A stretch of DNA of 61,684 nucleotides. It comes from Methanobacteriota archaeon (lineage in GTDB: Archaea; Thermoplasmatota; Poseidoniia; Poseidoniales; Thalassarchaeaceae). The DNA lies in NCBI GenBank assembly GCA_002717835.1, contig PBBV01000024.1, forward strand, positions 1 to 61,684. The letters are read 5' to 3'. Of the stretch, positions 37,920-49,795 are shown one piece after another; the first letter of the stretch is position 1, and each line of letters opens with the position of its first letter. Both the position numbers and the translations under genes were made by a program. The notes under the pieces are model-generated. The model was not told where the DNA came from. It made no database searches and worked only from the letters and a program-made list of their open reading frames with translations.

Positions 37920-38966
37920 GTGACTCCAGTATCCGCTATTTTACTGTACGGCACTATCGCATTAGGGGTGTCATTCATCTGCTCTATTCTGGAGGCTGTG
38001 CTCTTGAGCACAACTAGAGGGCATATCCTAGCATTGCAGCCCAAAATGCCGACAACGGCTGGGAGGTGGCTGACGTTCAAGGACGACCCTGAGCGACCAC
38101 TAACGGCTATACTCACCCTAAATACGATCGCTCACACAGTTGGTGCACTGGGTGTGGGTTCGGAAGTAGAAAATGCGTATCCCGGCGAATATGCACTAGC
38201 AATTGCGTCAACCATACTCACACTGCTTGTACTACTTCTCTCCGAAATTCTTCCAAAGACGATAGGAACTCTCTATTGGAGAAGGCTCACCATAAGTGCG
38301 GGTTTAGTACTCCACTGGATGACTATTCTCCTAGCACCCATCATCTGGCCTATTGAGAAAACCCGTCGCCTCCTCCCCACAGTAAAAGAAGAAGCAATGA
38401 CCAGGGATGAGATTTCCGTCATAGCGGATATAGCCGAAGAAACGGATGTGATAGATGAAAGGGAAGAGAGTGTAATACAAAATCTCTTGATGCTCAAGGA
38501 AATGACCGTGGGCGACATTATGACGCCTCGAACCGTTATGACGTATGTTGAAGCTGATGAAACAGTAGGTTCAGTAATGAAGCGAATTCCCGTTATGGTT
38601 CACGGTAGAATGCCGGTTTTTGATGAAGACGCGGTAATAGGTATGGTACTAAGGTCAGACATTCTTCGGAACGCGGCAGCGGATAATTTCGATCCGTCCA
38701 TGACAGATATTATGCGTCCAATATCAAGCGTCCATTCCGATGGTTCCATAGACGCAGCACTGAGGATAATGCTTGAAAATAGAGTCCAAATATTGACTGT
38801 AGAAGAAGAGTTTGGGACCATCATTGGCCTAGTAACCATGGAGGATGTTATTGAAACTCTACTAGGTGTTGAGATAGTTGATGAAGCAGATATCGAGGGC
38901 ATGAAGGACGGAGCTGTTCGCGAAGACATGCGCGAGCTAGCTATGATGCGTCGAGAAGAGGAATGA
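37920..38966 (+). CDS. CNNM/DUF21 transmembrane domain plus CBS-pair protein (HlyC/CorC family, no CorC_HlyC C-domain)
   Basis: The DUF21 blocks FICSILEAVLLS and RPLTAILTLNTIAHTVGA are followed by DIMTPR and two CBS motifs. I propose the in-frame GTG start at 37920, because the track ORF start (37776) runs deep into metG. Confidence 0.75.
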   Translation: MTPVSAILLYGTIALGVSFICSILEAVLLSTTRGHILALQPKMPTTAGRWLTFKDDPERPLTAILTLNTIAHTVGALGVGSEVENAYPGEYALAIASTILTLLVLLLSEILPKTIGTLYWRRLTISAGLVLHWMTILLAPIIWPIEKTRRLLPTVKEEAMTRDEISVIADIAEETDVIDEREESVIQNLLMLKEMTVGDIMTPRTVMTYVEADETVGSVMKRIPVMVHGRMPVFDEDAVIGMVLRSDILRNAAADNFDPSMTDIMRPISSVHSDGSIDAALRIMLENRVQILTVEEEFGTIIGLVTMEDVIETLLGVEIVDEADIEGMKDGAVREDMRELAMMRREEE

Positions 38967-38967
38967 T

Positions 38968-39798
38968 TCAATCTAGGTTTGTCGTATCTTCTTCCTTCTC
39001 GGCGAGGAGGCCTCTCTTTTCTGCATAATCGCTAAGTTGGTCTAATCTCTTCAGCCAACCTTTGGAGCTCCCAGTCTTAGTGGATCTAACCAGCCAAACA
39101 CCACCAAATATCCTTTCCCATAGGCCCCTTTTTGCCATTGAGAACCGGGTCAACAACCAATCTAAAAATAGTGGAATCAAGAGTAGGAGCCCAATTATCC
39201 TGAATATTGCGGATCCGGTAGAATCCCCCAGGGGAGATGAGAGGTCCGAAAGCATGGTTAAGGCAGTTACGAGGCCTATAAGCGCGAATGGAAAGTTGAG
39301 TCCCTTTAGGAAAGTGTATGCCCATGAAGCATTATTGCCACCCGATGTTACAAACTTAGTACGTGATACGATATTCCCTATCGTTCTATTGAATCTGGAT
39401 GGAAGAAAACCGACATTGCCTATGTAAAGTAACGTACCTCCGATAATGAAGTAAGTAGCGTCAAAATTCAGGCCCCAGGCAAATACCCCTACTACGGGGA
39501 ATATCCACCCATAGCTGACTATGATATCCACAAATCTTCTGAATGCCATCTGTCCGCTGGTCGGTAGCTCGAATCCCTGGGGGAAAGATGGTAGATCAAC
39601 TGGATCTTTCGGCTCCTTAGTTTTCTTTTCTTTTTCACGTCGCCGGGAAAATCTAGACTCTTTTTTGGGCTTCTCAACTTTTGGAGTAGCCTTGGAAGGG
39701 ATCTTTTCAGGAGCCTTTGCTGGTGCTTTCTGAGGGCTATTCTTCTTAGTGGTCTCCTTTGGAGTTTTTCCGGATTCTGCCTTCTCTAGTAAGCCCAT
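38968..39798 (-). CDS. Membrane protein, possibly RDD family, with a Lys/Pro-rich N-terminal tail
   Basis: FRRFVDIIVSYG..., NRTIGNIVSRTKFV and LWERIFGGVWLV loosely fit the RDD pattern. The N-terminal 70 aa are K/P/E low complexity. Confidence 0.4.
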   Translation of the reverse strand: MGLLEKAESGKTPKETTKKNSPQKAPAKAPEKIPSKATPKVEKPKKESRFSRRREKEKKTKEPKDPVDLPSFPQGFELPTSGQMAFRRFVDIIVSYGWIFPVVGVFAWGLNFDATYFIIGGTLLYIGNVGFLPSRFNRTIGNIVSRTKFVTSGGNNASWAYTFLKGLNFPFALIGLVTALTMLSDLSSPLGDSTGSAIFRIIGLLLLIPLFLDWLLTRFSMAKRGLWERIFGGVWLVRSTKTGSSKGWLKRLDQLSDYAEKRGLLAEKEEDTTNLD

Positions 39799-39807
39799 GT
39801 CAACCCC

Positions 39808-40770
39808 TCACTGAAGCGCCTCGCCCATAGTCTTGTAGTGTTCAAAGTCCTCAGACTGTGTAAAAATCTCGATTTCCGATGCAGGAAGATCGCCTAAAAC
39901 TTCGTTGATGAGCGCAAAGAAGTCCCTCCTATCGTCTTCAGGAGCGTGATGGGGGTCCATTCCTACTTTTTTGTAAAGCTCATATGCATCAGATTCAGTG
40001 AAGGTTTGAATAAATTTTGAATCTTGATTTCCGAGAAGTGTGTCAACAATGCTGAAGAGCTTGGCAAAGTCATCATTGGCCTGCTTCAATCTGGTTATAG
40101 CTTCTGCAAATTCTTCAAATTCCATAGTCCCGCTTTCATCTACATCTGCGGTTTGGAAGAATTCCACCAACTCTTCTTCCTCAAATGAAGAAAGCATATC
40201 CGTGCTTATTCCCGTAGCATCTGAGACCTTCTCAATGAACGCTGGCTGATCCATAGAGTGAATGAACTCATCGAGTGTGAGATGATCAGTATCATTAGGC
40301 TTCTCAATTAGCTCGACAACTGGTGCGATATCTCTGACTATTTGTTGTTGTTCTTTCCTCATTACGATGATTTCTCTGTCCAATTCGGTTCCGAACCTAT
40401 CAGAAAATCTGTTGATTAGCGACCCTCTTTCACCTTTTGCGATTCTGTCTATGTGGCCATACATCCCGTCAAGGCCTTCGACGCCTATGTTGGCTGCCTT
40501 TCTAGCACTCCAGAGCGATTCCAGATCTTCTTCGGCGGGGTCTTTGGTTTTCTTTGACCATTCTTGATCGTACTCTCCCAGCTCAGGAGTCGTAACGGTT
40601 CCTTGTCCGCCCCCGATAGGAACGAGGCTGTCATAGTCTTCGTTCGAGGGGTTCTGAGGCGGTGGAGGCGGCATCATGGACCCTCCAAGACCATCTAATG
40701 GAGGCGGTGGTGGTGGAGGGGGCAAAGGGGGTAATTTCCCCTTCTTCTTACGCCGTGGTATTATGCCCAT
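39808..40770 (-). CDS. EF-hand-containing protein with an N-terminal polyproline tract
   Basis: Canonical 12-residue EF loop DVDESGTMEFEE (aa 209-220) flanked by helices. The N-terminus has PPLPPPPPPPP (8 consecutive Pro) and PPPPP. Confidence 0.55.
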   Translation of the reverse strand: MGIIPRRKKKGKLPPLPPPPPPPPLDGLGGSMMPPPPPQNPSNEDYDSLVPIGGGQGTVTTPELGEYDQEWSKKTKDPAEEDLESLWSARKAANIGVEGLDGMYGHIDRIAKGERGSLINRFSDRFGTELDREIIVMRKEQQQIVRDIAPVVELIEKPNDTDHLTLDEFIHSMDQPAFIEKVSDATGISTDMLSSFEEEELVEFFQTADVDESGTMEFEEFAEAITRLKQANDDFAKLFSIVDTLLGNQDSKFIQTFTESDAYELYKKVGMDPHHAPEDDRRDFFALINEVLGDLPASEIEIFTQSEDFEHYKTMGEALQ

Positions 40771-40832
40771 GATGTGCTCTCATCCAATTCGGGGTTTCAA
40801 GGTTCGCCGAATGTGTTGCTGATGTGTGCTAT

Positions 40833-42011
40833 TCAGGAGGGTACCAGTTCTGCCCATCCTTTGAGTTGTAAGAACATGGCCATACCCTCATCGACAACAT
40901 ACTCACTCCCAGAATTACCATCTATCTCTCTTTCATTTATTATAGCCCTGACATCATCGATCAAAAGGCGAATTTTTGTATTCTCGCTGCCGCCGAACAC
41001 TATTGCTTCCTTTAATGGATCGAAGGGTTTTGACCCGTCCGGGTCTAACCTCTCAAATGGTATCTCGGTAACTCTGAGACCAGATTTCCCATGTAGACTT
41101 CCAAGGTGTCTTATCACTCTCTTGACGTCGACTGTTACGTTCTCATCCGTTTCTCCGCCTATAACTGAGACAGAAGAATTCGCTCTTACGAGCGCCCAAA
41201 AAAGATTTGTTCCACTTTCTCCGAAAACGTTGGAAGAACCGCCCTTCAACCTTGTAACGTGATCTTGGCTAGAAGCCATTTCGATTAGTTTGGTCATCGT
41301 ACCACGACTCACTGGGTGATTCTGACTCTTGGCTTGTTCAATCAGACTATTGATGGTGGGTGATCCATTCCCTCCTTTTGAGGCATCTGCGAGCATGTTT
41401 GAGATCCTTTCTATTCCATCGTCGAGTCTCCTGGACCACCCTGAATCTTTCCTCTGGGTTGTCGATACATCAAGGCCGACACCTCGAATGTAGGTGACGA
41501 TCTCTCTCCGGGCGTTGGAGTCGAGGTGAAAGAGAGAAGGATCTCTGAGATGGATGTGAAAGCCGCGATGACCTGAAAAGGTGAATTGTGCATAATCTCT
41601 GTTGAATCCAAACTCCGGTTCAAGAAAATCATTCCAAAGGGACCATGCCTGATCCTGTATGGCGGATATCAGATTAGGAAAATCCGTGGGGCTGATACCA
41701 TGTAAATGATCGCCATCTAAATCAAAGATCAGGTCAGCTCCCCTCCAGCCCTTGTCAGACATCGTTCTTTGAGATGGATCATCGTAGTAAGCCGTCGAGT
41801 GGAAACAAGAGTGGGGGAATCTCTGGCAGAGGTACGAATGGAGTGCTCCTGCATCCGTGAATGATCGGTGCCGATCTGTTGGCCTATCACCCCACGGCAT
41901 GAACATCCATTCGCGCCGTCTAAGTCGCGGTGGGAGCCAGATATCGCTTGGTTCCATAGATCTGTAGAAGTCGGCAAACCTCGAACCTATACGACTCCAA
42001 CCCTTAGCCAC
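40833..42011 (-). CDS. priS: DNA primase small (catalytic) subunit PriS
   Basis: ADLIFDLDGDHL (catalytic DxD), FSGHRGFHIH and REWMF are archaeo-eukaryotic primase motifs. Confidence 0.88.
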   Translation of the reverse strand: MAKGWSRIGSRFADFYRSMEPSDIWLPPRLRRREWMFMPWGDRPTDRHRSFTDAGALHSYLCQRFPHSCFHSTAYYDDPSQRTMSDKGWRGADLIFDLDGDHLHGISPTDFPNLISAIQDQAWSLWNDFLEPEFGFNRDYAQFTFSGHRGFHIHLRDPSLFHLDSNARREIVTYIRGVGLDVSTTQRKDSGWSRRLDDGIERISNMLADASKGGNGSPTINSLIEQAKSQNHPVSRGTMTKLIEMASSQDHVTRLKGGSSNVFGESGTNLFWALVRANSSVSVIGGETDENVTVDVKRVIRHLGSLHGKSGLRVTEIPFERLDPDGSKPFDPLKEAIVFGGSENTKIRLLIDDVRAIINEREIDGNSGSEYVVDEGMAMFLQLKGWAELVPS

Positions 42012-42047
42012 ATCTGAGCGATTGGAGGTCGGACCTTCAAGATGGCG

Positions 42048-42242
42048 TCATTCCATCCTCAAGCCTGGTACGGTTTTAGGCTCGGTGGAAGATTCTGCTC
42101 CTGTTAGTTCGAGATATGCCTCGTATGACAAATACTCGCCATCATGAACAATCGCCTCTGAAAATTTCAAGGGCTTTCCGGTCTTAGCACATTTTGGCCC
42201 AAGCTGACCCGTTGCAGTTGAGAGCCTGTCTGGATCGGGCAT
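42048..42242 (-). CDS. Hypothetical small protein upstream of priS (start uncertain; the long form runs to 42362)
   Basis: ORF only. The long form has a Cys/His-rich N-terminus but would overlap the divergent mqnD start. It may not be a gene. Confidence 0.25.
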   Translation of the reverse strand: MPDPDRLSTATGQLGPKCAKTGKPLKFSEAIVHDGEYLSYEAYLELTGAESSTEPKTVPGLRME

Positions 42243-42331
42243 GTAACTCCCAGAAGGCCCAGATACTTCATGGTGGCGATTGTCATGGTGTTTGCCAAGG
42301 CAATTTATACAACCTAGGACGCGCCTGGTCC

Positions 42332-43189
42332 ATGACAACTCGGTACAGCATCGGCCATTCACCAGATCCGGATGACGCTTTCATGTTCTATGCCATGACT
42401 GAATCTCTAATTGACACGGACGACAGGCGATACGAACACGTCCTTGTAGACATTCAGACGCTTAACCAACAAGCCCTGGACGGCGCTCACGATGTAAGCG
42501 CTGTCTCGATACATTCCTATCCTACAATTGCCAATAATTACTCATTGATGAATTGCGGAGCATCCATGGGTGAGGGGTATGGTCCAATGATAATATCCAC
42601 CTCTGAGTCGACAGTAGAGGAGGCTTCTAAATCCACAATAGCAATTCCTGGACTCGGCACCTCAGCATACCTAGCATTGAGGCTAGCATTGGGGGATGTC
42701 AATGTAGAAGTTATGCCCTTTGACGAGATACTCCCCTCAGTCGCATCCGGAAAGTCGACTCATGGTCTGATCATTCACGAGGGCCAATTGACCTGGAAAG
42801 ATGAAGGGGTTCATTTGGTCTTAGACCTGGGAATTTGGTGGAATGAAAAAACCGGACTACCACTTCCCTTAGGTGGAAATGTCGTGTTAAGATCTCATGG
42901 ATCAGAAATGTGTGAACACATCGCCAATGACGTCCGCCTCTCTATTGAGCACGCGATAAAAAATCCTGATTCGGCGTTATCGTTCGCAAAGAAATGGGGT
43001 CGAGGGATTTCAGATGAAACCAACAAAAAATTCGTTGGAATGTATGTCAACCAGAGGACCATAGATTATGGCGACGACGGTCGTGAAGCTGTCATGAGGT
43101 TTCTGGAAGAGGGTCAATCAATTGGTTTGGTTGACTCGGACTTTGACCCGAGAGCCATTGATTTCATAGGCAGGGCACGTAGCCGATAA
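42332..43189 (+). CDS. mqnD: 1,4-dihydroxy-6-naphthoate synthase-like protein (MqnD family, futalosine pathway)
   Basis: SIGHSPDPDDAFMFYA (compare GHSPCPND), LVLDLGIWWNEKTGLPLPLGGNVV and IIHEGQLT. The start is taken at internal Met 47 of the track ORF. Confidence 0.75.
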   Translation: MTTRYSIGHSPDPDDAFMFYAMTESLIDTDDRRYEHVLVDIQTLNQQALDGAHDVSAVSIHSYPTIANNYSLMNCGASMGEGYGPMIISTSESTVEEASKSTIAIPGLGTSAYLALRLALGDVNVEVMPFDEILPSVASGKSTHGLIIHEGQLTWKDEGVHLVLDLGIWWNEKTGLPLPLGGNVVLRSHGSEMCEHIANDVRLSIEHAIKNPDSALSFAKKWGRGISDETNKKFVGMYVNQRTIDYGDDGREAVMRFLEEGQSIGLVDSDFDPRAIDFIGRARSR

Positions 43190-43192
43190 AAC

Positions 43193-43672
43193 ATGAACAA
43201 ACCAGAGGTATCCGAGTTCGATTCTGTCGATCCCGCACCTGCAAGTGATATACTGTCCGTGCCGACTCTGAGAGAAACCATATGTAACGAAGAAGAGAGA
43301 ATGTTCCTGAGAATGAGGGCTCTCTTCGCATTAAGAAATATTGGTGGTAACGACGCTGTTGAAGCACTTGCTGCAGCATATTCTTCGAAATCAGCGCTTC
43401 TTAAACATGAGATAGCTTATGTCATGGGACAGATGCAGGAACCCGCAGCAGTGCCTCATCTGATAAGTCGTCTTGAGGATCGAGATGAAGATCTCATGGT
43501 ACGCCATGAGGCTGCAGAGGCCCTTGGAGCAATAGGAGATAGAGCAGCGTTAGCAACATTAAGCAAATTCATAGGAGATCCAGAACCGGTGATAGCGGAG
43601 TCCTGCGAAGTTGCGATGGATTTATTGGAATACGTTGCGTCAAAGTCATTAAATTACGAAATGACTGATTGA
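43193..43672 (+). CDS. Half-length deoxyhypusine-hydroxylase-like HEAT-repeat protein (putative di-iron site His-Glu motifs)
   Basis: 159 aa. The blocks SVDPAP, RMRALFALRNIGG, SALLKHEIAYVMGQMQ, LMVRHEAAEALGAIGD and ESCEVAMD match the hallmark blocks of eukaryotic DOHH/Lia1 as I recall them. Two His-Glu pairs (H72E73, H105E106) lie 33 residues apart. It starts 4 nt after the mqnD stop. Confidence 0.7.
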   Translation: MNKPEVSEFDSVDPAPASDILSVPTLRETICNEEERMFLRMRALFALRNIGGNDAVEALAAAYSSKSALLKHEIAYVMGQMQEPAAVPHLISRLEDRDEDLMVRHEAAEALGAIGDRAALATLSKFIGDPEPVIAESCEVAMDLLEYVASKSLNYEMTD

Positions 43673-44460
43673 ATGTTTCTTTGAACTAAACCGGTATCCA
43701 TACCACATACATCTACGAGAAAGCGAGCTAGTCCTTCTACAGACTGTTCGTCGAGTAAGTTAGATACCTCTGAACGAAAGTATTGGTCCATTCTGCTCGG
43801 TGTGAGACCTATCTTGTCAGCGGCTATGCGTACTACCTCATCTCTTCTGTGGTTGTCATGAAGGAAGGCTTGGTAATTGGCGATTAGATCTGTCTTAGCC
43901 TCTGATATGTCCTGATCGCCAGATGACATGTGTGTGGCGAAGACGCCGAAAACCATTGGGAGCCCTGTTACGCGAGTCCACTCCGCTCCTAGGTCCAATT
44001 GGACCAGAGATGGATGTTCTGAAGCCGCCCTAAGTGCCCTATCCCCAATGAGTAGAGCCCCGTCACACTGTTGGAGCATGGAACCCAAATCAGGCCCCAG
44101 ATCAATGGCACGAGGGTCTAAACCCTGTTTATCTAGATACCATCTTAGCAGTTTCTTTGATGTTGATGAGTCAGTTGGAAATGCTATATCTCTCATATGG
44201 TCCGGAGGGCGATCTCCAAAAAGTAGTACGCTTCCAACGTGCCCCATCGAAACTATTCCGAGATCCCCTACAAGACGCAGGATGTCGCTGTGTTTCGCGA
44301 AATCAGCAGAGGGAATCGGTGCCATTAAACAATCTCTTCTTGTTACGTGTCCCGTCAACCACGAGGGCGGGGCCGGCAATACTCGCCATTTTTTCGAAAG
44401 ATTGTGATACAGGGGGTCGCAATTAGTGAAAGCCACGCGTCCTATGGTCCTGTTCCACAT
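43654..44460 (-). CDS. mqnA: Chorismate dehydratase-like protein (MqnA family)
   Basis: RVAFTNCDPLYHNL, SVLLFGDRP, GALLIGDRALR, LDLGAEWTRVTGLPMVFGVF. Confidence 0.7.
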   Translation of the reverse strand: MWNRTIGRVAFTNCDPLYHNLSKKWRVLPAPPSWLTGHVTRRDCLMAPIPSADFAKHSDILRLVGDLGIVSMGHVGSVLLFGDRPPDHMRDIAFPTDSSTSKKLLRWYLDKQGLDPRAIDLGPDLGSMLQQCDGALLIGDRALRAASEHPSLVQLDLGAEWTRVTGLPMVFGVFATHMSSGDQDISEAKTDLIANYQAFLHDNHRRDEVVRIAADKIGLTPSRMDQYFRSEVSNLLDEQSVEGLARFLVDVCGMDTGLVQRNIQSVIS

Positions 44461-44464
44461 AGTC

Positions 44465-45712
44465 TCAACTCAATACTGGTAATGTTTTGGCTTCTGGGCG
44501 GTTTTTCAAAGTGTGTGATTTGAATTTAGTGTATGTTGTATTTCTCTGGACGGCCGCTTGTCCCGAGGATTCTATCATGCGTATCAAGCCATCCATGCCT
44601 GTATTGAGAGGTGTGTTAGAGCCTGCAGAATGCATAATTTCTTCTTTTTCTACTGTTCCATCGAGATCATCTGCACCGTTGAGTATTGCGAGTGATGCGA
44701 GATCATCTCCGATGTTCATTCTGTAGGCTTTCAAATGAGGTATGTTATCAAGCATAAGTCGGGATATCGAAATCGTTCTTAGGACCTCTTCAGCACTTGG
44801 TATCTTAGCTTCAGGCAAACGTGTTTTATCGGGGAGAAATGGGTATGGTACAAAGCATTGGAATCCAGAAGTGTCATCTTGCAATCTTCTGAGCAAATCC
44901 AGATGCGTGATTCTGTCTTCGAGTGTTTCTACGGTTCCAAACAACATGGTACAGTTGGAAGGAATACCAATTTCATGTGCAGATCTGTGTATGGAAAGGT
45001 ACTCTAAGCTAGATTCTTTGCCTCTGCAAATTCTATCCCTCACAGAATCAACGAGTATCTCCGCTCCGCCACCAGGAATTGCATCCAGGCCCGCTTTCTT
45101 CAGTCGCGCGAGAGTTTGGAGTATGGATATCCCGGTACGCTTAGCGATATGTTTGATTTCCACTGCGGTTAGGGATTTTATTGTGATGTGTGGGAATTCA
45201 ATCTTCATGGCGCGATATAGATTTTCATAGTGCTCGATGGTCCATTCTGGGTGGAGTCCTCCAACTGAATGTACTTCGTCGATAGATTCTGAGTACGGAC
45301 GGACACGATCTAGGTATTCTTCTATCGAAAGCGAATATGCGTCTTCATGTCTGGCACCTTTCCTGAACGCGCAAAATCTACAAGCCAGAACACATATGTT
45401 GGTTGTATTAACATGAAGGTTGAGATTGAAGTGAACCTTTTTCCCGTGCTTTCTGGTTTTAACGGAGTGAGCCAACTGGCCAAGTTGTATTAGAGGAGCG
45501 TTTTTGTAAAGCGACAAACCCAAATCTACGTCGATTCTACCGCCTTCTGAAATGATTGTCTGAGCCCTGTCAATGAGATCTTTGACTTCCAAGTCTGCCA
45601 TATTGAGATCCAGCGGCATGGTGCCGCTGTCATTGTGCATGTATTCCCAATTCGGACCCCCATCTATAACTGAATGGCTAACTCCATAGCACCCAAAACG
45701 ATAGGGAACCAA
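44465..45712 (-). CDS. Radical-SAM enzyme of the MqnE/MqnC (CofH/ThiH-like) family
   Basis: NTTNICVLACRFCAF (CxxxCxxC cluster), HSVGGLHPEW and GLDAIPGGGAEI. I cannot tell aminofutalosine synthase from dehypoxanthine-futalosine cyclase by eye. The N-terminal start is uncertain. Confidence 0.75.
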   Translation of the reverse strand: MVPYRFGCYGVSHSVIDGGPNWEYMHNDSGTMPLDLNMADLEVKDLIDRAQTIISEGGRIDVDLGLSLYKNAPLIQLGQLAHSVKTRKHGKKVHFNLNLHVNTTNICVLACRFCAFRKGARHEDAYSLSIEEYLDRVRPYSESIDEVHSVGGLHPEWTIEHYENLYRAMKIEFPHITIKSLTAVEIKHIAKRTGISILQTLARLKKAGLDAIPGGGAEILVDSVRDRICRGKESSLEYLSIHRSAHEIGIPSNCTMLFGTVETLEDRITHLDLLRRLQDDTSGFQCFVPYPFLPDKTRLPEAKIPSAEEVLRTISISRLMLDNIPHLKAYRMNIGDDLASLAILNGADDLDGTVEKEEIMHSAGSNTPLNTGMDGLIRMIESSGQAAVQRNTTYTKFKSHTLKNRPEAKTLPVLS

Positions 45713-45739
45713 TAAGGACCAATAGAATCACGTCGATAC

Positions 45740-46555
45740 ATGCAGAGTCAGTCTGTGGAAGAATTGAATGCGTCTGCATCGAAGTGTAGGAAGCGAATAG
45801 TAGACATGGTCTACAAGGCCAAGTCCGGGCACCCCGGAGGCTCATTGTCCTGTATAGACATACTCGTTGCATTATACAAGGGCGTCATGAGATTCGATTC
45901 TAATAACCCCAGTTGGGATGATCGTGACAGGTTTATCATGAGTAAAGGGCACGCTAGTCCCGCTGTATATTCCATTTTGAGGGAGGTAGGAATCCTGCAG
46001 GATTCCGATCTAAATGGTTTTAGATCATTGGGTTCTGTCTGTCAAGGACATGTCGATAGAAAGTGGACGGAGGGGGTTGACTTCTCAGCTGGTAGTCTGG
46101 GTATGGGCCTATCATTCGGGCTCGGTTCGGCGCTCGCCGCTAGGCTCGATGGGTCCAAAAGGCATACATGGGTATTGTTAGGTGATGGTGAAATACAGGA
46201 GGGTCAAATATGGGAAGCTGCAATGGCCGCATCTCATCTCGAAGTAAGTAATCTAACCGCCATTATCGACAAGAATAGAATACAGAATGACAATTTCGTG
46301 GATGACCAAATGCGTGTCGGAGACATCGGTTCCAAATTCAAATCATTTGGATGGAATGTAATCAACATTAATGGGCACGATATGCATGAGATAGTGAGTG
46401 CTCTCAAAGATTCCAAGACAGGTAACGGCCCTACTGCCATTATAGCATCGACAGTGAAAGGAAAAGGAGTATCATATATGGAAAATAATCCTGCATTTCA
46501 TGGGGCAGCACCTAATGATGAACAATATGCCTTGGCGATGGAGGAATTGTCATGA
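45740..46555 (+). CDS. Transketolase, N-terminal (TPP-binding) subunit
   Basis: SGHPGGSLSCIDILVALY, SKGHASPAVYS, LLGDGEIQEGQIWEA. Confidence 0.9.
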   Translation: MQSQSVEELNASASKCRKRIVDMVYKAKSGHPGGSLSCIDILVALYKGVMRFDSNNPSWDDRDRFIMSKGHASPAVYSILREVGILQDSDLNGFRSLGSVCQGHVDRKWTEGVDFSAGSLGMGLSFGLGSALAARLDGSKRHTWVLLGDGEIQEGQIWEAAMAASHLEVSNLTAIIDKNRIQNDNFVDDQMRVGDIGSKFKSFGWNVININGHDMHEIVSALKDSKTGNGPTAIIASTVKGKGVSYMENNPAFHGAAPNDEQYALAMEELS

Positions 46556-47505
46556 CTGGAATTTCAGAACCGGGAGCCTCGAGAGACGGGTATGGTGATG
46601 CGTTACTCGATTTATCAAGTGATGAGAGGGTAGTGGTTCTAGAGGCAGATCTAGGAAAGTCTACAAAATCATGCCATTTTCGGGCTAAATATCCGAAAAG
46701 AACATTCTGCCTTGGTATAGCCGAACAAAATATGGCTCTCGTTGGAGCTGGTTTAGCGGAAGCCGGAAAGATCCCATTTGCAAGCACCTTCGCGATATTT
46801 TCTGAACGTGCCTTTGAGCAATTTCGAAATGGCATAGCCAGAACAGGTCTTGTTGTTCACTTATGTGGCAGTCATGGAGGCATGCATACCGGACAGGATG
46901 GTAGTAGTGCTCAATCGACAGAGGACCTAGGCATTTTCAGAACCCTACCTGGAATGACTGTGTTACACCCTTGCGATAGAAACTCAGCAAGGTCTCTAAC
47001 ACGAAATTTGATCGACCATGATAACCCCTCGTACACTAGAACAGCACGCAACAAGACTAGGGAAATATACTCCGAAGAAGAAGCCGCTGCTCTGGAAATA
47101 GGCGTTGCATCGGAGTTGAGATCAGGCGATGATGCTACTATTATCGCGTGTGGCGTAATGGTAGAAAGATCGCTCGATGCTGCAGATGAGCTTGCAAAGC
47201 ATGGAATAATGGCACGAGTTGTAGACATGCATACCATCAAGCCTATCGATAAAGAAGCCGTACTGAGTGCAGCTGAGACCGGCGCCATAGTTACGGCAGA
47301 AGATCATTCTGTAATCGGCGGGCTTGGTTCTGCTATAGCTGAGATATTGGCCGAAGAATGTCCTACGAAAATGAGGATGGTGGGTGTTAGGGATAAATTC
47401 GGAGAAAGTGGATCTCCCGAGGAAATCATGTATAAGATGGGTCTGACTTCAGATAATATTGTTCAAAGAGTGATGGAAATTGTGCAAAAACCTGGGCGTA
47501 CTTGA
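46552..47505 (+). CDS. Transketolase, C-terminal (pyrimidine-binding) subunit
   Basis: GIAEQNMALVGAGLA, TFAIFSERAFEQ, GSHGGMHTGQDGSSAQSTEDL. 4-nt overlap with the N-terminal subunit gene. Confidence 0.9.
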   Translation: MTGISEPGASRDGYGDALLDLSSDERVVVLEADLGKSTKSCHFRAKYPKRTFCLGIAEQNMALVGAGLAEAGKIPFASTFAIFSERAFEQFRNGIARTGLVVHLCGSHGGMHTGQDGSSAQSTEDLGIFRTLPGMTVLHPCDRNSARSLTRNLIDHDNPSYTRTARNKTREIYSEEEAAALEIGVASELRSGDDATIIACGVMVERSLDAADELAKHGIMARVVDMHTIKPIDKEAVLSAAETGAIVTAEDHSVIGGLGSAIAEILAEECPTKMRMVGVRDKFGESGSPEEIMYKMGLTSDNIVQRVMEIVQKPGRT

Positions 47506-47531
47506 TGTAGGCGTTCGCATCCGAGTCACTC

Positions 47532-48032
47532 ATGGTTGACGAGACCGTACTAAGAGACCTCCTTGACGGGAAGATAACTCCAGAGGAAGTAGATGATCCC
47601 AACATAGTCAGCCTGATTGAGCGTATATACGGTGCTGAAGCACTTGAAAAACTAGGCTTGAGGCAGGCCGACTCGGCCCCACGGAGTTTTTCTGAACCCG
47701 TTGAGGTGGATGTTGTTTCCGTAGATTCGGATGTTGAAGGATCAACAAATATTCATACTGATGAAGGTCGATGGGGGCCCAGATGGTCGGTTCTAATTTT
47801 AGGCATTCTTACAACCGCAATTTTGGTATTCAACATCTACGTAGGCGTTGGAACAGTGATAGACCTCTGTGAGTCTGACTCATGCGGTGAAACCTACACA
47901 CTTGGAAACGCCCCTGAATTGGAATCTTCAGACAGCTGGAGGGAAACGGGAACACTGACTAACGAGGATATCATCGCAATCAGTACTACATCTATAATCG
48001 CGGTAATAGGTCTTACTGGAAGGTATAGATGA
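47532..48032 (+). CDS. Hypothetical protein with one or two membrane helices
   Basis: 166-aa ORF with an acidic N-terminal half and a hydrophobic segment WSVLILGILTTAILVFNIYVGVG. No family recognised. Confidence 0.4.
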   Translation: MVDETVLRDLLDGKITPEEVDDPNIVSLIERIYGAEALEKLGLRQADSAPRSFSEPVEVDVVSVDSDVEGSTNIHTDEGRWGPRWSVLILGILTTAILVFNIYVGVGTVIDLCESDSCGETYTLGNAPELESSDSWRETGTLTNEDIIAISTTSIIAVIGLTGRYR

Positions 48033-48289
48033 AAAATTACGCATAAACCTCATGAATGGATTAGTGCATCCTTGGATCAGTAAGGATTGTAACAATCGCA
48101 GTACTTTTTCAATGGGCTAGTAGGGTGTTTTACTTATTCGCAGGACATCTCCTGAAAGAGACAACAACACAGATGTTGATGGGTCATGTTACCTTTGGCT
48201 ATTCCCCAGTTTCTAGTCTGTGACAACCAGATATCCATAAAATGGCTTAGCAATGAATGGATTCATTAGCACGTTCAGGCTTGAAGGGG

Positions 48290-49795
48290 CTAATACATCC
48301 GAGCTAGATGCTGCCTTCTGAAAGTCTCCTTGCCAGTTATTATGCATTTCCTGGGCTCGTTGTAAGGGTCCAGCGAATCTCCTAGAAGCGTTAAATTTGT
48401 AGATTTCTCCAGTTTTTCTGCGTCTGCATCGTTTCCATCGAAAGCTACCTCGAAAACCATCCCTTCTGCTAAATCAGAGGGTTTCTTGGGTAGTGATTTT
48501 AGTATCGACATTTTCGATTCCAACAGGTTTGTAGATCTCGCTCTAAGCTCTGTCGAGATGCCTTCAAGGGATTTCACAATGATTTCTTCCAACGAATCAA
48601 TAGGGTGACTATCCTTACCTCCAGTTCTAAGGGTCATCACGAAAGAGTCGCTTGAAAGATCCCGTGGTCCAAGCTCTATTCTCAGAGGCACGCCCTTGAT
48701 TTCCCAGTCATAATGCTTAGCGCCCGGTCTCAAATCTCGTGAGTCGAGTCTGGCCCTGATTCCGAATTTCTTCAGTCTTGTTACGATATTTGTTGCCTCG
48801 GGCTCAACGGCCTCGTCGAGATGTGCCGCGACAGGCATTACGACAACTTGGATAGGTGCTATCGATGGGGGCATTATGAGCCCGGCATCATCGCCATGAA
48901 CCCCGACCACGGCGCCTAGAAGCCTCTCACTCATCCCAAACGTCGTTTGATGGCAGTTACTCTGACTACCGTCCGTGGCCTCGTATGAGATATCAAATGC
49001 GCGAGCCCACTGATCCCTGTAGTGATGATACGAAGCTATTTGCAGCGTCCTCCCGTTCGGCATAATCGCATCGACTGCATTTGTGTACCAAGCTCCGGGG
49101 AACGTATCCCAAACGGGTCTTCTCGAAATGATTGCAGGGAGGCAGAGGTCGTGAAGCAGCCTCCGAACTATATCTGAGTCCTCATCTATCTGGGCATCAG
49201 CTCCAGATTGGTCAGAGTGTGCAGTATGAGCCTCGAAGAAGTGAATTTCTCGTACCCTGATAAAGGAACGAGTCTGTTTAGTTTCGTATCGAAAAGTATT
49301 GACAATCTGAAATGTCTTCAACGGGAGATCTGCATGGGATCTGATCCATAGCGAGAACATCGTGTACATTGGAGTCTCGCTAGTGGGTCGTAGAAACATA
49401 GGGACATCGAGATCGTGTTCACCGGCATGTTTTACCCAATATACCTCTTTCTCAAACCCCCCAATCTCATCATCAATTCGTAACTCAGAGGGGTCAACGC
49501 CTCGTTCCCTAGCCATCTTGAGAGTCTGTACCAATTTATTCTCCTTTTCCAAAAGATCGTGGGGCACCAATAATGGGAAGTTGTATTCGTCATGGTCTGT
49601 ATTCCTCATCTCTTCACGAACGAGTGCGTCTATGTTACCCATCGCACTCCACCCATAGGGTTTCCACACGTCCATTCCCTTGATTGGATACCGCTTATCG
49701 ACAAGATCTGCGATCTCCACTATCGAAGGATACCACGCATTGAAATCTTCCTTTGGGGGGATGCCTCTTTTGGCGCTACCTGGTCCCTTGGGCAT
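48290..49795 (-). CDS. proS: Prolyl-tRNA synthetase (archaeal/eukaryotic type)
   Basis: FNAWYPSIVEIADL, FRYETKQTRSFIRVREIHFFEAHT, the anticodon-binding domain and the C-terminal zinc-domain remnant ending in Tyr. Confidence 0.92.
   Translation of the reverse strand: MPKGPGSAKRGIPPKEDFNAWYPSIVEIADLVDKRYPIKGMDVWKPYGWSAMGNIDALVREEMRNTDHDEYNFPLLVPHDLLEKENKLVQTLKMARERGVDPSELRIDDEIGGFEKEVYWVKHAGEHDLDVPMFLRPTSETPMYTMFSLWIRSHADLPLKTFQIVNTFRYETKQTRSFIRVREIHFFEAHTAHSDQSGADAQIDEDSDIVRRLLHDLCLPAIISRRPVWDTFPGAWYTNAVDAIMPNGRTLQIASYHHYRDQWARAFDISYEATDGSQSNCHQTTFGMSERLLGAVVGVHGDDAGLIMPPSIAPIQVVVMPVAAHLDEAVEPEATNIVTRLKKFGIRARLDSRDLRPGAKHYDWEIKGVPLRIELGPRDLSSDSFVMTLRTGGKDSHPIDSLEEIIVKSLEGISTELRARSTNLLESKMSILKSLPKKPSDLAEGMVFEVAFDGNDADAEKLEKSTNLTLLGDSLDPYNEPRKCIITGKETFRRQHLARMY

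What the first reader, a model, noticed from the sequence alone, without database searches (positions are those of the whole stretch)
43193..43672. Half-size deoxyhypusine hydroxylase (DOHH) homologue in an archaeon, operonic with mqnD
Seen in sequence:
- The 159-aa ORF contains, in order, SVDPAP, RMRALFALRNIGG, SALLKHEIAYVMGQMQEPAAVP, LMVRHEAAEALGAIGD and VIAESCEVAMDLLE.
- As I recall human DOHH and yeast Lia1, these correspond almost block-for-block to one half of the enzyme (...SVDPAPP..., RYRAMFALRNAGG, SALLKHELAYCLGQMQ, PMVRHEAGEALGAIGD, ESCEVALD).
- The two His-Glu pairs (H72E73, H105E106) are 33 residues apart, the same spacing as within each half of DOHH.

Established knowledge:
- Eukaryotic DOHH is ~300 aa, an internal dyad of 4+4 HEAT repeats.
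- Its four His-Glu motifs hold a di-iron centre that hydroxylates deoxyhypusine on eIF5A.
- Some archaea carry hypusine on aIF5A, yet to my knowledge no archaeal DOHH gene has been identified.

Inference:
- This is a single four-HEAT half that could homodimerise to rebuild the di-iron site. That would make it either the missing archaeal hydroxylase or a model of the pre-duplication ancestor of DOHH.
- Alternative reading: it starts 4 nt after mqnD inside a futalosine cluster, so it may be a new di-iron hydroxylase acting in naphthoquinone biosynthesis.
- Either outcome would be new.
Basis: partly seen in the sequence, partly recalled or inferred. Interest (0 to 1): 0.85.

Follow-up and report, generated by a model that had tools for sequence, protein, structure and literature searches.

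The report
Half-size deoxyhypusine hydroxylase in marine archaea
Marine Group II archaea encode a strongly conserved 159-residue protein equal to one half of the eukaryotic enzyme that completes the hypusine modification of translation factor 5A, although the literature says archaea lack this enzyme.

Summary

- **Homology:** It matches human DOHH (PDB 4D4Z) at E = 2.9e-68. The C-half scores 128 bits and the N-half 104 bits. The best single stretch on a generic HEAT protein is about 50 bits.
- **Catalytic residues:** All iron-ligand and substrate-binding residues of one DOHH half are present. They are invariant in 70 distinct orthologues.
- **Host and distribution:** The host is a Poseidoniales (Marine Group II) archaeon. 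GTDB species genomes gave 398 confirmed matches, and the best 80 are all Poseidoniales.
- **Constraint:** dN/dS is about 0.06. The gene is the most conserved in its neighbourhood.
- **Relation to the two halves:** On profiles built from eukaryotic N-halves and C-halves, the archaeal core scores equally (157 vs 156 bits). Real halves discriminate by about 30 bits. It is therefore not a recent copy of a eukaryotic C-half.
- **Link to mqnD:** mqnD sits directly upstream in 85 of 87 loci. In the two exceptions the upstream gene is primase (one intact, one cut by the contig end), so the link looks positional.

Most likely it works as a homodimeric di-iron deoxyhypusine hydroxylase acting on aIF5A. 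Activity and dimerisation are untested. JGI's pipeline already names it "deoxyhypusine monooxygenase", but no paper found discusses it. It does not explain hypusine in Sulfolobus or Thermoplasma.

The parts
43193..43672 (+). Half-size DOHH homologue: 159 aa, one domain of four HEAT repeats.
   Evidence: ORF. Human DOHH 4D4Z at E = 2.9e-68. Pfam HEAT_PBS/HEAT_2. 65 invariant positions in 70 orthologues. dN/dS median 0.063.
43223..43240 (+). S11-V-D-P-A-P16 motif. In eukaryotic DOHH it lies in the linker just before the C-terminal domain.
   Evidence: Aligned to human SVDPAPP. Invariant in 70 orthologues. Absent from eukaryotic N-halves.
43406..43411 (+). First His-Glu pair, H72-E73. It equals human H56-E57 and H207-E208 (iron ligand His; substrate-binding Glu).
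   Evidence: Alignment (4D4Z numbering offset +5). Residue roles from PMC9117371. Invariant.
43427..43432 (+). G79-Q80. G79 equals human G63/G214, which bind the deoxyhypusine side chain.
43505..43510 (+). Second His-Glu pair, H105-E106. It equals human H89-E90 and H240-E241 (both are iron ligands).
42332..43189 (+). mqnD (1,4-dihydroxy-6-naphthoate synthase). Its stop codon is 3 nt before the half-DOHH start. The likely start is the ATG at 42332; the mechanical ORF begins at TTG 42194.
   Evidence: Pfam VitK2_biosynth 2.8e-66. PDB TTHA1568 (MqnD) 1e-49 and AF1704 1e-63. Directly upstream in 85 of 87 related loci.
43654..44460 (-). mqnA (chorismate dehydratase). Convergent gene whose 3' end overlaps the half-DOHH 3' end by 19 nt.
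   Evidence: Pfam VitK2_biosynth 1.1e-42. PDB chorismate dehydratase 7AHR 7e-20.
44465..45712 (-). mqnE-like radical SAM enzyme (aminofutalosine synthase type; MqnC is second best).
   Evidence: NCBIfam TIGR03700 MqnE 398 bits and TIGR03699 MqnC 341 bits, both below their trusted cut-offs. Pfam Radical_SAM plus CofH_C.

Best explanation
The gene encodes a true member of the deoxyhypusine hydroxylase lineage that consists of a single four-HEAT domain.

Each chain supplies one iron site: two His and one Glu (H72, H105, E106). It also supplies one copy of the substrate-binding residues (E73, E106, G79). Two chains associate around a two-fold axis, in the way the N- and C-domains of the eukaryotic enzyme pack around a pseudo-two-fold axis. 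That rebuilds the four His-Glu, two-iron centre. [quoted passage not shown] The host is an aerobic surface-ocean archaeon, so O2 is available.

The gene is co-transcribed with mqnD for positional reasons, not because it acts on a quinone intermediate.

In evolutionary terms the protein sits at or near the split between the two halves of eukaryotic DOHH, so it resembles the pre-duplication state.

**Shown:** homology, domain content, residue conservation, purifying selection, synteny and taxonomic range among visible relatives.
**Inferred:** homodimer formation, iron binding, the substrate, and the direction of evolution.
For: 1. **Specific homology.** 4D4Z at E = 2.9e-68, with 128 and 104 bits per half against at most 50 bits for generic HEAT proteins. 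The window protein's closest full-size relatives are about 300 aa with two matched stretches and 42-51% identity. Those I looked up are eukaryotic DOHHs, for example Cucumis and Geosiphon, and one lies beside PAC4 and PPTA genes.
2. **Catalytic residues.** The equivalents of iron ligands H56/H207, H89/H240 and E90/E241, and of substrate residues E57/E208 and G63/G214, are all present. They are invariant across N-halves, C-halves and archaeal halves and across 70 Poseidoniales orthologues. Residue roles come from PMC9117371.
3. **Strong constraint.** dN/dS has a median of 0.063. The protein is the most conserved of five neighbouring genes in 62 of 69 loci, with mean identity 74% against 56-67%.
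4. **Closer to both halves than they are to each other.** Archaeal half to C-half 46.6%, to N-half 44.1%, N to C 38.5%. With human alone the figures are 51.6%, 43.7% and 39.7%. On N and C profiles it scores equally, 157.0 vs 155.7 bits. Held-out N-halves differ by -27 +/- 10 bits and held-out C-halves by +34 +/- 8 bits.
5. **Dimer-compatible fold.** A head-to-tail tandem of the protein models at pLDDT 91 and pTM 0.89. It superposes on 4D4Z at TM 0.94 and 1.1 A rmsd over 284 columns. Other HEAT proteins reach about TM 0.46 or less at comparable coverage.
6. **Independence from mqnD.** In L049 the gene is intact (160 aa) with primase, not mqnD, upstream. L079 has the same upstream arrangement, but its copy is cut by the contig end.
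7. **Substrate availability.** DHS homologues are reported in all sequenced archaeal genomes (PMC5178350). MGII are described as photoheterotrophs (abstracts). That they are aerobic is my own knowledge.
Against: - There is no biochemical evidence. Poseidoniales are uncultured and the modification state of their aIF5A is unknown.
- The tandem model is not independent. Its alignment consisted of full-length eukaryotic DOHHs, and 4D4Z predates AlphaFold2 training. The single-sequence tandem failed with pLDDT 46. Inter-subunit geometry and metal distances could not be measured.
- I could not show that these genomes lack a second, divergent half that might form a heterodimer.
- I did not verify DHS or aIF5A in Poseidoniales. 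Neither is in the window.
- The tight and nearly universal coupling to mqnD (0-3 nt gap in the gene calls) remains unexplained if the function is translational.
- The eukaryotic comparison set was the best hits to the query. This may inflate absolute similarity, though it should not equalise N and C scores.
Confidence: 0.6

Rival explanations
1. It is a di-iron oxygenase recruited to menaquinone (futalosine) metabolism. It would hydroxylate or otherwise oxidise a naphthoate or quinone intermediate, or make a modified quinone, together with MqnD.
For: - The gene starts 3 nt after mqnD and lies inside an mqnD / mqnA / mqnE-like cluster.
- The mqnD junction is kept in 85 of 87 loci from both Poseidoniales families.
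- From my own knowledge, di-iron hydroxylases do occur in quinone biosynthesis (Coq7 in ubiquinone), though with a different fold.
Against: - The residues that bind the deoxyhypusine amine in human DOHH (E57/E208, G63/G214 equivalents) are invariant. Overall identity to eukaryotic halves exceeds the N-to-C identity, which is not what a change of substrate predicts.
- In L049 and L079 primase, not mqnD, lies directly upstream. In L049 mqnE/C is also missing between mqnA and transketolase and the gene is intact.
- The conserved block also holds unrelated housekeeping genes (primase PriS, transketolase), so the synteny is order-wide gene order and is not specific to a pathway.
- In 16 of 84 loci a gene of about 790-860 aa (WD40 and/or EF-hand hits) separates it from mqnA.
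- From my own knowledge, the known futalosine pathway has no hydroxylation step.
Confidence: 0.12
2. On origin: the gene is a fragment of a eukaryotic DOHH. The C-terminal half was acquired horizontally by an ancestor of Poseidoniales and then domesticated. It is not a pre-duplication form.
For: - The flanks are C-half-like. The N-terminal SVDPAP motif, the Met-Phe before RxRA, the Glu-Ser-Cys motif and the C-terminal F/L-x-Y tail are shared with eukaryotic C-halves and absent from N-halves.
- Three of four strict diagnostic columns are C-like.
- There is a modest lean to C in identity and in 62% of NJ bootstraps.
- All visible half-size relatives belong to one archaeal order, which suits an acquisition.
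Against: - On the 119-column core it scores equally on N and C profiles, whereas genuine C-halves prefer the C profile by 34 +/- 8 bits.
- In the point NJ tree it joins at the junction of the N and C clades, not inside a crown-eukaryote subgroup.
- Where human N and C differ, it matches N at 13 positions, C at 23 and neither at 40.
- A transfer would therefore have to come from a stem eukaryote soon after the duplication, or be followed by extensive re-symmetrisation.
- An unrooted three-clade tree cannot separate 'just before' from 'just after' the duplication.
Confidence: 0.2
3. It works as one subunit of a heterodimer with a second, more divergent four-HEAT protein encoded elsewhere in the genome.
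For: - The eukaryotic enzyme is an asymmetric pair of diverged halves.
- Only 80 of the 398 GTDB matches could be inspected, so lower-identity paralogues cannot be excluded.
Against: - All 80 inspected loci are syntenic orthologues. The one MAG with two loci (UBA105; L025 and L050) has two syntenic copies, which points to mixed strains and not paralogues.
- No second HEAT homologue is in the window.
- The protein is equidistant from N and C, as expected for a symmetric self-partner.
Confidence: 0.06
4. It is a non-catalytic HEAT / PBS-lyase-type scaffold protein, as NCBI names suggest ('HEAT repeat domain-containing protein', 'PBS lyase').
For: Pfam matches only HEAT_PBS and HEAT_2. NCBI names are generic.
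Against: - NCBIfam lyase and NblB models score 13-37 bits against cut-offs of 275-600.
- The DOHH match is 232 bits.
- Both His-Glu pairs are invariant, while generic HEAT proteins lack them.
Confidence: 0.02

Closest known systems
Eukaryotic deoxyhypusine hydroxylase (human DOHH, PDB 4D4Z/4D50; yeast Lia1)
   Same: - It has the same HEAT-repeat fold.
- It is 44-52% identical to each half.
- It has identical His-Glu iron ligands and deoxyhypusine-binding Glu and Gly residues.
- It shares the SVDPAP motif and the Glu-Ser-Cys helix.
- A tandem of the archaeal protein models onto 4D4Z at TM 0.94.
   Different: - It has one four-HEAT domain (159 aa, two His-Glu pairs) and not eight repeats with four pairs in one chain. 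It must oligomerise to form a di-iron site.
- It is archaeal, not eukaryotic.
- It is equidistant from the N- and C-halves.
- It is encoded in an operon-like arrangement with mqnD.
Small archaeal/bacterial PBS-type HEAT proteins (MTH187, PDB 1TE4; E. coli YibA, 1OYZ; CpcE/NblB lyase-type proteins) and the designed alphaRep proteins derived from them
   Same: Same repeat type (Pfam HEAT_PBS, HEAT_2) and, for MTH187, a similar size.
   Different: - They have no His-Glu motifs.
- Similarity is much weaker: MTH187 E = 6e-4, YibA 0.08, CpcE 1e-5; alphaRep at most 50 bits per stretch.
- NCBIfam lyase models score far below their cut-offs.
Futalosine-pathway enzymes (MqnA, MqnD, MqnE/C)
   Same: Genomic neighbours; probably co-transcribed with mqnD.
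   Different: There is no sequence or fold relationship. By my own knowledge the pathway needs no hydroxylase. In two species genomes primase, not mqnD, lies directly upstream of the gene.

Membership tests
Deoxyhypusine hydroxylase (DOHH) | Sequence similarity to DOHH that is specific, meaning well above similarity to generic HEAT/PBS repeat proteins | tested here: met
   4D4Z at 231.9 bits, E = 2.9e-68, with 128 and 104 bits per half. Generic HEAT stretches reach at most 50.5 bits. Custom DOHH half profiles give about 156 bits on 119 columns, against about 60 bits for Pfam HEAT_2/HEAT_PBS.
Deoxyhypusine hydroxylase (DOHH) | His-Glu motifs that supply the iron ligands (human H56, H89, E90 / H207, H240, E241), spaced 33 residues apart within a half | tested here: met
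   H72-E73 and H105-E106 align to both human pairs. They are invariant in 12 mixed sequences and 70 orthologues. Residue roles come from PMC9117371.
Deoxyhypusine hydroxylase (DOHH) | Residues that bind the deoxyhypusine side chain (E57/E208, E90/E241, G63/G214) | tested here: met
   E73, E106 and G79 are aligned and invariant.
Deoxyhypusine hydroxylase (DOHH) | Eight HEAT repeats in one chain forming a symmetrical dyad with four His-Glu motifs | tested here: not met
   The protein has 159 aa, four repeats and two His-Glu motifs. All 70+ orthologues are 156-162 aa. The dyad could exist only as a homodimer.
Deoxyhypusine hydroxylase (DOHH) | Two halves pack into the DOHH dyad architecture (here, a homodimer) | tested here: inconclusive
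   The tandem model has pLDDT 91 and matches 4D4Z at TM 0.94. It was driven by a full-length DOHH alignment.
Deoxyhypusine hydroxylase (DOHH) | Binds two irons and forms a peroxo-diiron(III) intermediate | not testable with these tools
   Needs recombinant protein, metal analysis, and optical or Mossbauer spectroscopy.
Deoxyhypusine hydroxylase (DOHH) | Hydroxylates deoxyhypusine on (a/e)IF5A | not testable with these tools
   Needs an enzyme assay or aIF5A mass spectrometry. DHS is reported in all sequenced archaeal genomes (PMC5178350), but I did not verify it in Poseidoniales.
Futalosine (Mqn) menaquinone pathway | Encoded with mqn genes and co-inherited with them | tested here: inconclusive
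   It is adjacent to mqnD in 85 of 87 loci. In L049 and L079 primase, not mqnD, is directly upstream, and L049 also lacks mqnE/C between mqnA and transketolase. Whole-genome co-occurrence could not be tested.
Futalosine (Mqn) menaquinone pathway | Homology to a known pathway enzyme, or a pathway step that needs this chemistry | tested here: not met
   There is no similarity to any Mqn family. Absence of a hydroxylation step in the pathway is my own knowledge and was not tested here.
PBS lyase / NblB HEAT proteins | Reaches the family-specific model cut-off | tested here: not met
   NblB 36.5 bits against a cut-off of 300. CpcE 26.9 against 330. CpeY 13.1 against 600.

The most novel reading that the evidence does not exclude
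Poseidoniales carry a living pre-duplication form of DOHH: a homodimeric four-HEAT di-iron hydroxylase that makes true hypusine on aIF5A. Eukaryotic DOHH would then have arisen by tandem duplication and fusion of such a half-size gene. Hypusine hydroxylation would not be a purely eukaryotic invention, and the most abundant planktonic archaea of the surface ocean would share it.
Probability: 0.35. Interest if true: 0.85.

Novelty: new variant of a known kind. Interest (0 to 1): 0.72.

Why it matters
Papers from 2012 and 2016 state that DOHH is absent from archaea, and reviews up to 2026 report none. Yet several archaea contain hypusine.

This gene is a clear, strongly conserved DOHH homologue in a globally abundant archaeal order. 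It has the minimal single-domain form that the internal dyad of the eukaryotic enzyme implies as its ancestor. Three things become directly testable:
- whether a four-HEAT half can self-assemble into a working di-iron oxygenase;
- how the asymmetric eukaryotic enzyme evolved;
- whether some archaea use the eukaryotic-type hydroxylation step.

The protein is small (159 aa) and should be easy to express. It also shows that pipeline names ('deoxyhypusine monooxygenase' at JGI) can hold a real finding that the literature has missed.

Tried and rejected
- **Distribution outside Poseidoniales.** The GTDB scan returned 398 confirmed matches, but only the best 80 are shown and all are Poseidoniales. 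The representative search lists only the top 150. Half-size relatives below about 55% identity would fall outside that list. So presence in other archaea (Asgard, MGIII, Thermoplasma, Sulfolobus) is neither shown nor excluded.
- **Viral contigs.** No relatives were found.
- **Single-sequence tandem model.** Unusable, pLDDT 46.
- **Archaeal-only tandem alignment for structure prediction.** The accepted run used eukaryotic full-length DOHHs and is therefore closer to homology modelling.
- **NJ trees on 119 columns.** The archaeal clade is solid (95%), but N and C monophyly is recovered in only 18% and 11% of replicates. Placement is unresolved at C side 62% and N side 38%. An unrooted three-clade tree cannot polarise the duplication.
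- **Strict diagnostic-column test.** It yielded only 4 columns, so I replaced it with the profile test.
- **dN/dS against the window sequence.** Saturated, so I used closer pairs.
- **aIF5A or DHS in the window.** None found by motif search or by Pfam on ten ORFs of the right size.
- **Polyproline enrichment.** Five of 56 window proteins have PPP, which is unremarkable.
- **Park et al. 2006 PNAS.** Not held in the library.
- **Rejected readings.** PBS lyase or scaffold, and a recent transfer from a crown eukaryote.
Full report
**1. The observation**

ORF 43193..43672 (+) starts with ATG and encodes 159 aa. The two His-Glu pairs are at H72-E73 and H105-E106, 33 residues apart. The ATG lies 3 nt after the TAA stop of the upstream gene.

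**2. Is it DOHH-like or merely HEAT-like?**

- Pfam has no DOHH-specific model and reports only HEAT_PBS (60 bits) and HEAT_2 (61 bits).
- NCBIfam PBS-lyase and NblB models score 13-37 bits against cut-offs of 275-600.
- phmmer against all PDB sequences puts human DOHH (4D4Z) first at E = 2.9e-68 and 231.9 bits.
- The protein aligns without gaps to both halves of the human enzyme. The C-half gives 127.9 bits (query 3-151) and the N-half 104.4 bits (query 23-148).
- The next hits are designed alphaRep proteins. Their best single stretch is 50.5 bits, and they carry R-A or Y-R at the two His-Glu positions.
- Profiles I built from eukaryotic DOHH halves give about 156 bits on a 119-column core.

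**3. Catalytic residues**

According to PMC9117371, human H56, H89, E90, H207, H240 and E241 hold the di-iron centre. E57, E90, E208, E241 and G63/G214 bind the deoxyhypusine side chain. The review prints G65; the alignment register supports G63.

The 4D4Z chain carries a 5-residue numbering offset. With that offset the alignment maps:
- H72/E73 onto H56/E57 and H207/E208;
- H105/E106 onto H89/E90 and H240/E241;
- G79 onto G63 and G214.

These residues are invariant in a mixed alignment of archaeal halves and eukaryotic N- and C-halves. They are also invariant in 70 distinct Poseidoniales orthologues, where 65 of 159 positions never vary. The invariant set includes S11-V-D-P-A-P16.

**4. Host organism and range**

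- More than 100 clusters of 156-164 aa proteins at 75-99% identity come from marine metagenomes. The named ones belong to Poseidoniales, Thalassarchaeaceae or 'Euryarchaeota archaeon' MAGs.
- A second half-size cluster (P0212, 59% identity) is from Thalassarchaeaceae.
- A scan of one genome per GTDB species found 398 confirmed matches. The best 80, at 69% identity or more, are all Poseidoniales.
- In a library of 1.84 billion representatives, the only half-size proteins in the top 150 are these two clusters and one fragment. The other hits of about 300 aa have two matched stretches at 42-51% identity. Those I looked up are eukaryotic DOHHs (Cucumis, Geosiphon, EukProt), and one lies next to PAC4 and PPTA genes. 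Giant multi-repeat HEAT proteins make up the rest.
- I could not see past the display caps. Distribution outside Poseidoniales is therefore open.

**5. Selection**

Pairwise dN/dS among orthologues has a median of 0.063 over 61 pairs with dS between 0.05 and 1.5. Relative to the window, the half-DOHH averages 74% identity across 69 loci. The neighbours average 67% (MqnD), 63% (MqnE-like), 58% (MqnA) and 56% (PriS). It is the best conserved of the five in 62 of 69 loci.

**6. Neighbourhood**

- The upstream gene is MqnD.
- The convergent downstream gene is MqnA, chorismate dehydratase.
- Next comes an MqnE-like radical SAM gene.
- The block primase PriS, small ORF, MqnD, half-DOHH, MqnA(-), MqnE-like(-) is conserved in both Poseidoniales families.
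- MqnD is directly upstream in 85 of 87 loci.
- In 16 of 84 loci a gene of 786-856 aa, with WD40 hits in L001 and mainly EF-hand hits in L005, lies between the half-DOHH and MqnA.
- In L049 mqnD and mqnE/C are missing. The order there is primase, a 341-nt gap, an intact 160-aa half-DOHH with every motif, MqnA, then transketolase directly. L079 (UBA36) has the same upstream arrangement, but its contig ends inside the half-DOHH gene, so nothing downstream can be seen.

The gene is therefore almost always coupled to mqnD but does not depend on that coupling. Whether that lineage keeps mqnD elsewhere in the genome is unknown.

**7. Relation to the two halves of eukaryotic DOHH**

I split 68 full-size proteins at the SVDPAP motif and aligned them with six archaeal halves.
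- Core identities are: archaeal to C 46.6%, archaeal to N 44.1%, N to C 38.5%, N to N 41.7% and C to C 50.0%.
- With human DOHH alone, which was not chosen for similarity to the query, the figures are 51.6%, 43.7% and 39.7%. Where human N and C differ, the archaeal residue equals N at 13 positions, C at 23 and neither at 40.
- In NJ trees the archaeal clade has 95% support. In the point tree it joins at the junction of the N and C clades. Its side is unresolved, C in 62% of replicates and N in 38%.
- The clearest result comes from profiles built on 45 N-halves and 45 C-halves.
 - Held-out N-halves prefer N by 27 +/- 10 bits.
 - Held-out C-halves prefer C by 34 +/- 8 bits.
 - The archaeal halves are neutral at -1.3 +/- 1.9 bits (157.0 vs 155.7).
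- The flanks tell a different story. SVDPAP, Met-Phe, Glu-Ser-Cys and the F/L-x-Y tail occur only in C-halves and archaeal halves.

Together this excludes a recent copy of a crown-eukaryote C-half. Two readings remain. One is a lineage that split before or near the duplication, with the N-terminal copy later losing SVDPAP. The other is a very early transfer from a stem eukaryote. Topology alone cannot decide between them. One caveat applies: the eukaryotic set was the best hits to the query.

**8. Structure**

- A head-to-tail tandem of the protein folded without an alignment was unusable, with pLDDT 46.
- With 63 full-length eukaryotic DOHHs as the alignment, the tandem models at pLDDT 91.1 and pTM 0.89. 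The first copy's N-terminal 16 residues are unplaced, while the second copy's SVDPAP is confident.
- Foldseek places 4D4Z first with target-normalised TM 0.94 and rmsd 1.1 A over 284 columns at 45% identity. Other HEAT proteins reach about TM 0.46 or less at comparable coverage.

This shows the sequence fits both positions of the DOHH dyad. It does not independently prove a homodimer.

**9. Literature**

- Papers from 2012 and 2016 state that no DOHH orthologue exists in archaea (PMC3306375; PMC5178350).
- Reviews from 2021, 2022 and 2026 report none.
- No paper in the library pairs DOHH with Marine Group II or Asgard archaea.
- None of the listed MGII papers mentions hypusine.
- JGI/IMG nevertheless auto-names several of these proteins 'deoxyhypusine monooxygenase', while NCBI calls them 'HEAT repeat' or 'PBS lyase'.

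**10. Verdict**

The protein is a new architectural variant of DOHH: half-size, and presumably homodimeric. The most likely function is hydroxylation of deoxyhypusine on aIF5A in aerobic Poseidoniales (confidence about 0.6). A quinone-related oxygenase role is a minor rival at about 0.12.

It does not account for hypusine in Sulfolobus or Thermoplasma. It is of real interest for the hypusine field and for the evolution of internally duplicated repeat enzymes, and it can be tested directly with recombinant protein.

Noticed in passing
L001 6542-8902; L005 6516-9086 (absent from the window): In 16 of 84 related loci a gene of 786-856 aa lies between the half-DOHH and mqnA. It has WD40 beta-propeller hits in L001 and mainly EF-hand hits in L005. 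Both domain types are unusual for archaea. Its function is unknown.
   Followed up: partly
L049 3167-4850; L079 3514-4319: In two GTDB species genomes (SRR2103016_bin.36 and UBA36) primase, not mqnD, lies directly upstream of the half-DOHH. In L049 mqnE/C is also missing while half-DOHH and an mqnA-like gene (43% identity) remain. L079 ends inside the half-DOHH gene. This may mark a lineage that is rearranging or losing the futalosine pathway.
   Followed up: partly
window 39808-40770 (-): A 320-aa protein has runs of 8 and 5 consecutive prolines near its N-terminus. It is conserved next to the primase gene in relatives (for example L049 888-1859). Polyproline is the classic IF5A-dependent stalling motif, but only 5 of 56 window proteins contain PPP.
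   Followed up: partly
window 43654-43672: The 3' ends of the half-DOHH (+) and mqnA (-) coding regions overlap by 19 nt in convergent orientation.
   Followed up: no
window 42048-42362 (-); L001 4835-5029: A small ORF lies between primase and mqnD. Gene calls in relatives give 64-72 aa with no Pfam hit, and its position is conserved across the order.
   Followed up: no
window 45740-46555 and 46552-47505 (+): Two adjacent ORFs of 271 and 317 aa whose ends overlap by 4 nt follow the mqn genes. I labelled them a split transketolase from their translations alone. The first is conserved at the same position in most related loci.
   Followed up: no
L025 and L050 (both from MAG UBA105, contigs DALV01000106 and DALV01000070): One MAG carries two copies of the whole syntenic block on different contigs. 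This more likely reflects mixed strains in the bin than a true paralogue.
   Followed up: partly
window 44465-45712 (-): The radical SAM gene scores below the trusted cut-offs of both MqnE (398 vs 434.55) and MqnC (341 vs 428.1). No second gene of this type was seen in the cluster region examined (window 38000-49000 and the related loci), so its exact step in the pathway is uncertain.
   Followed up: no
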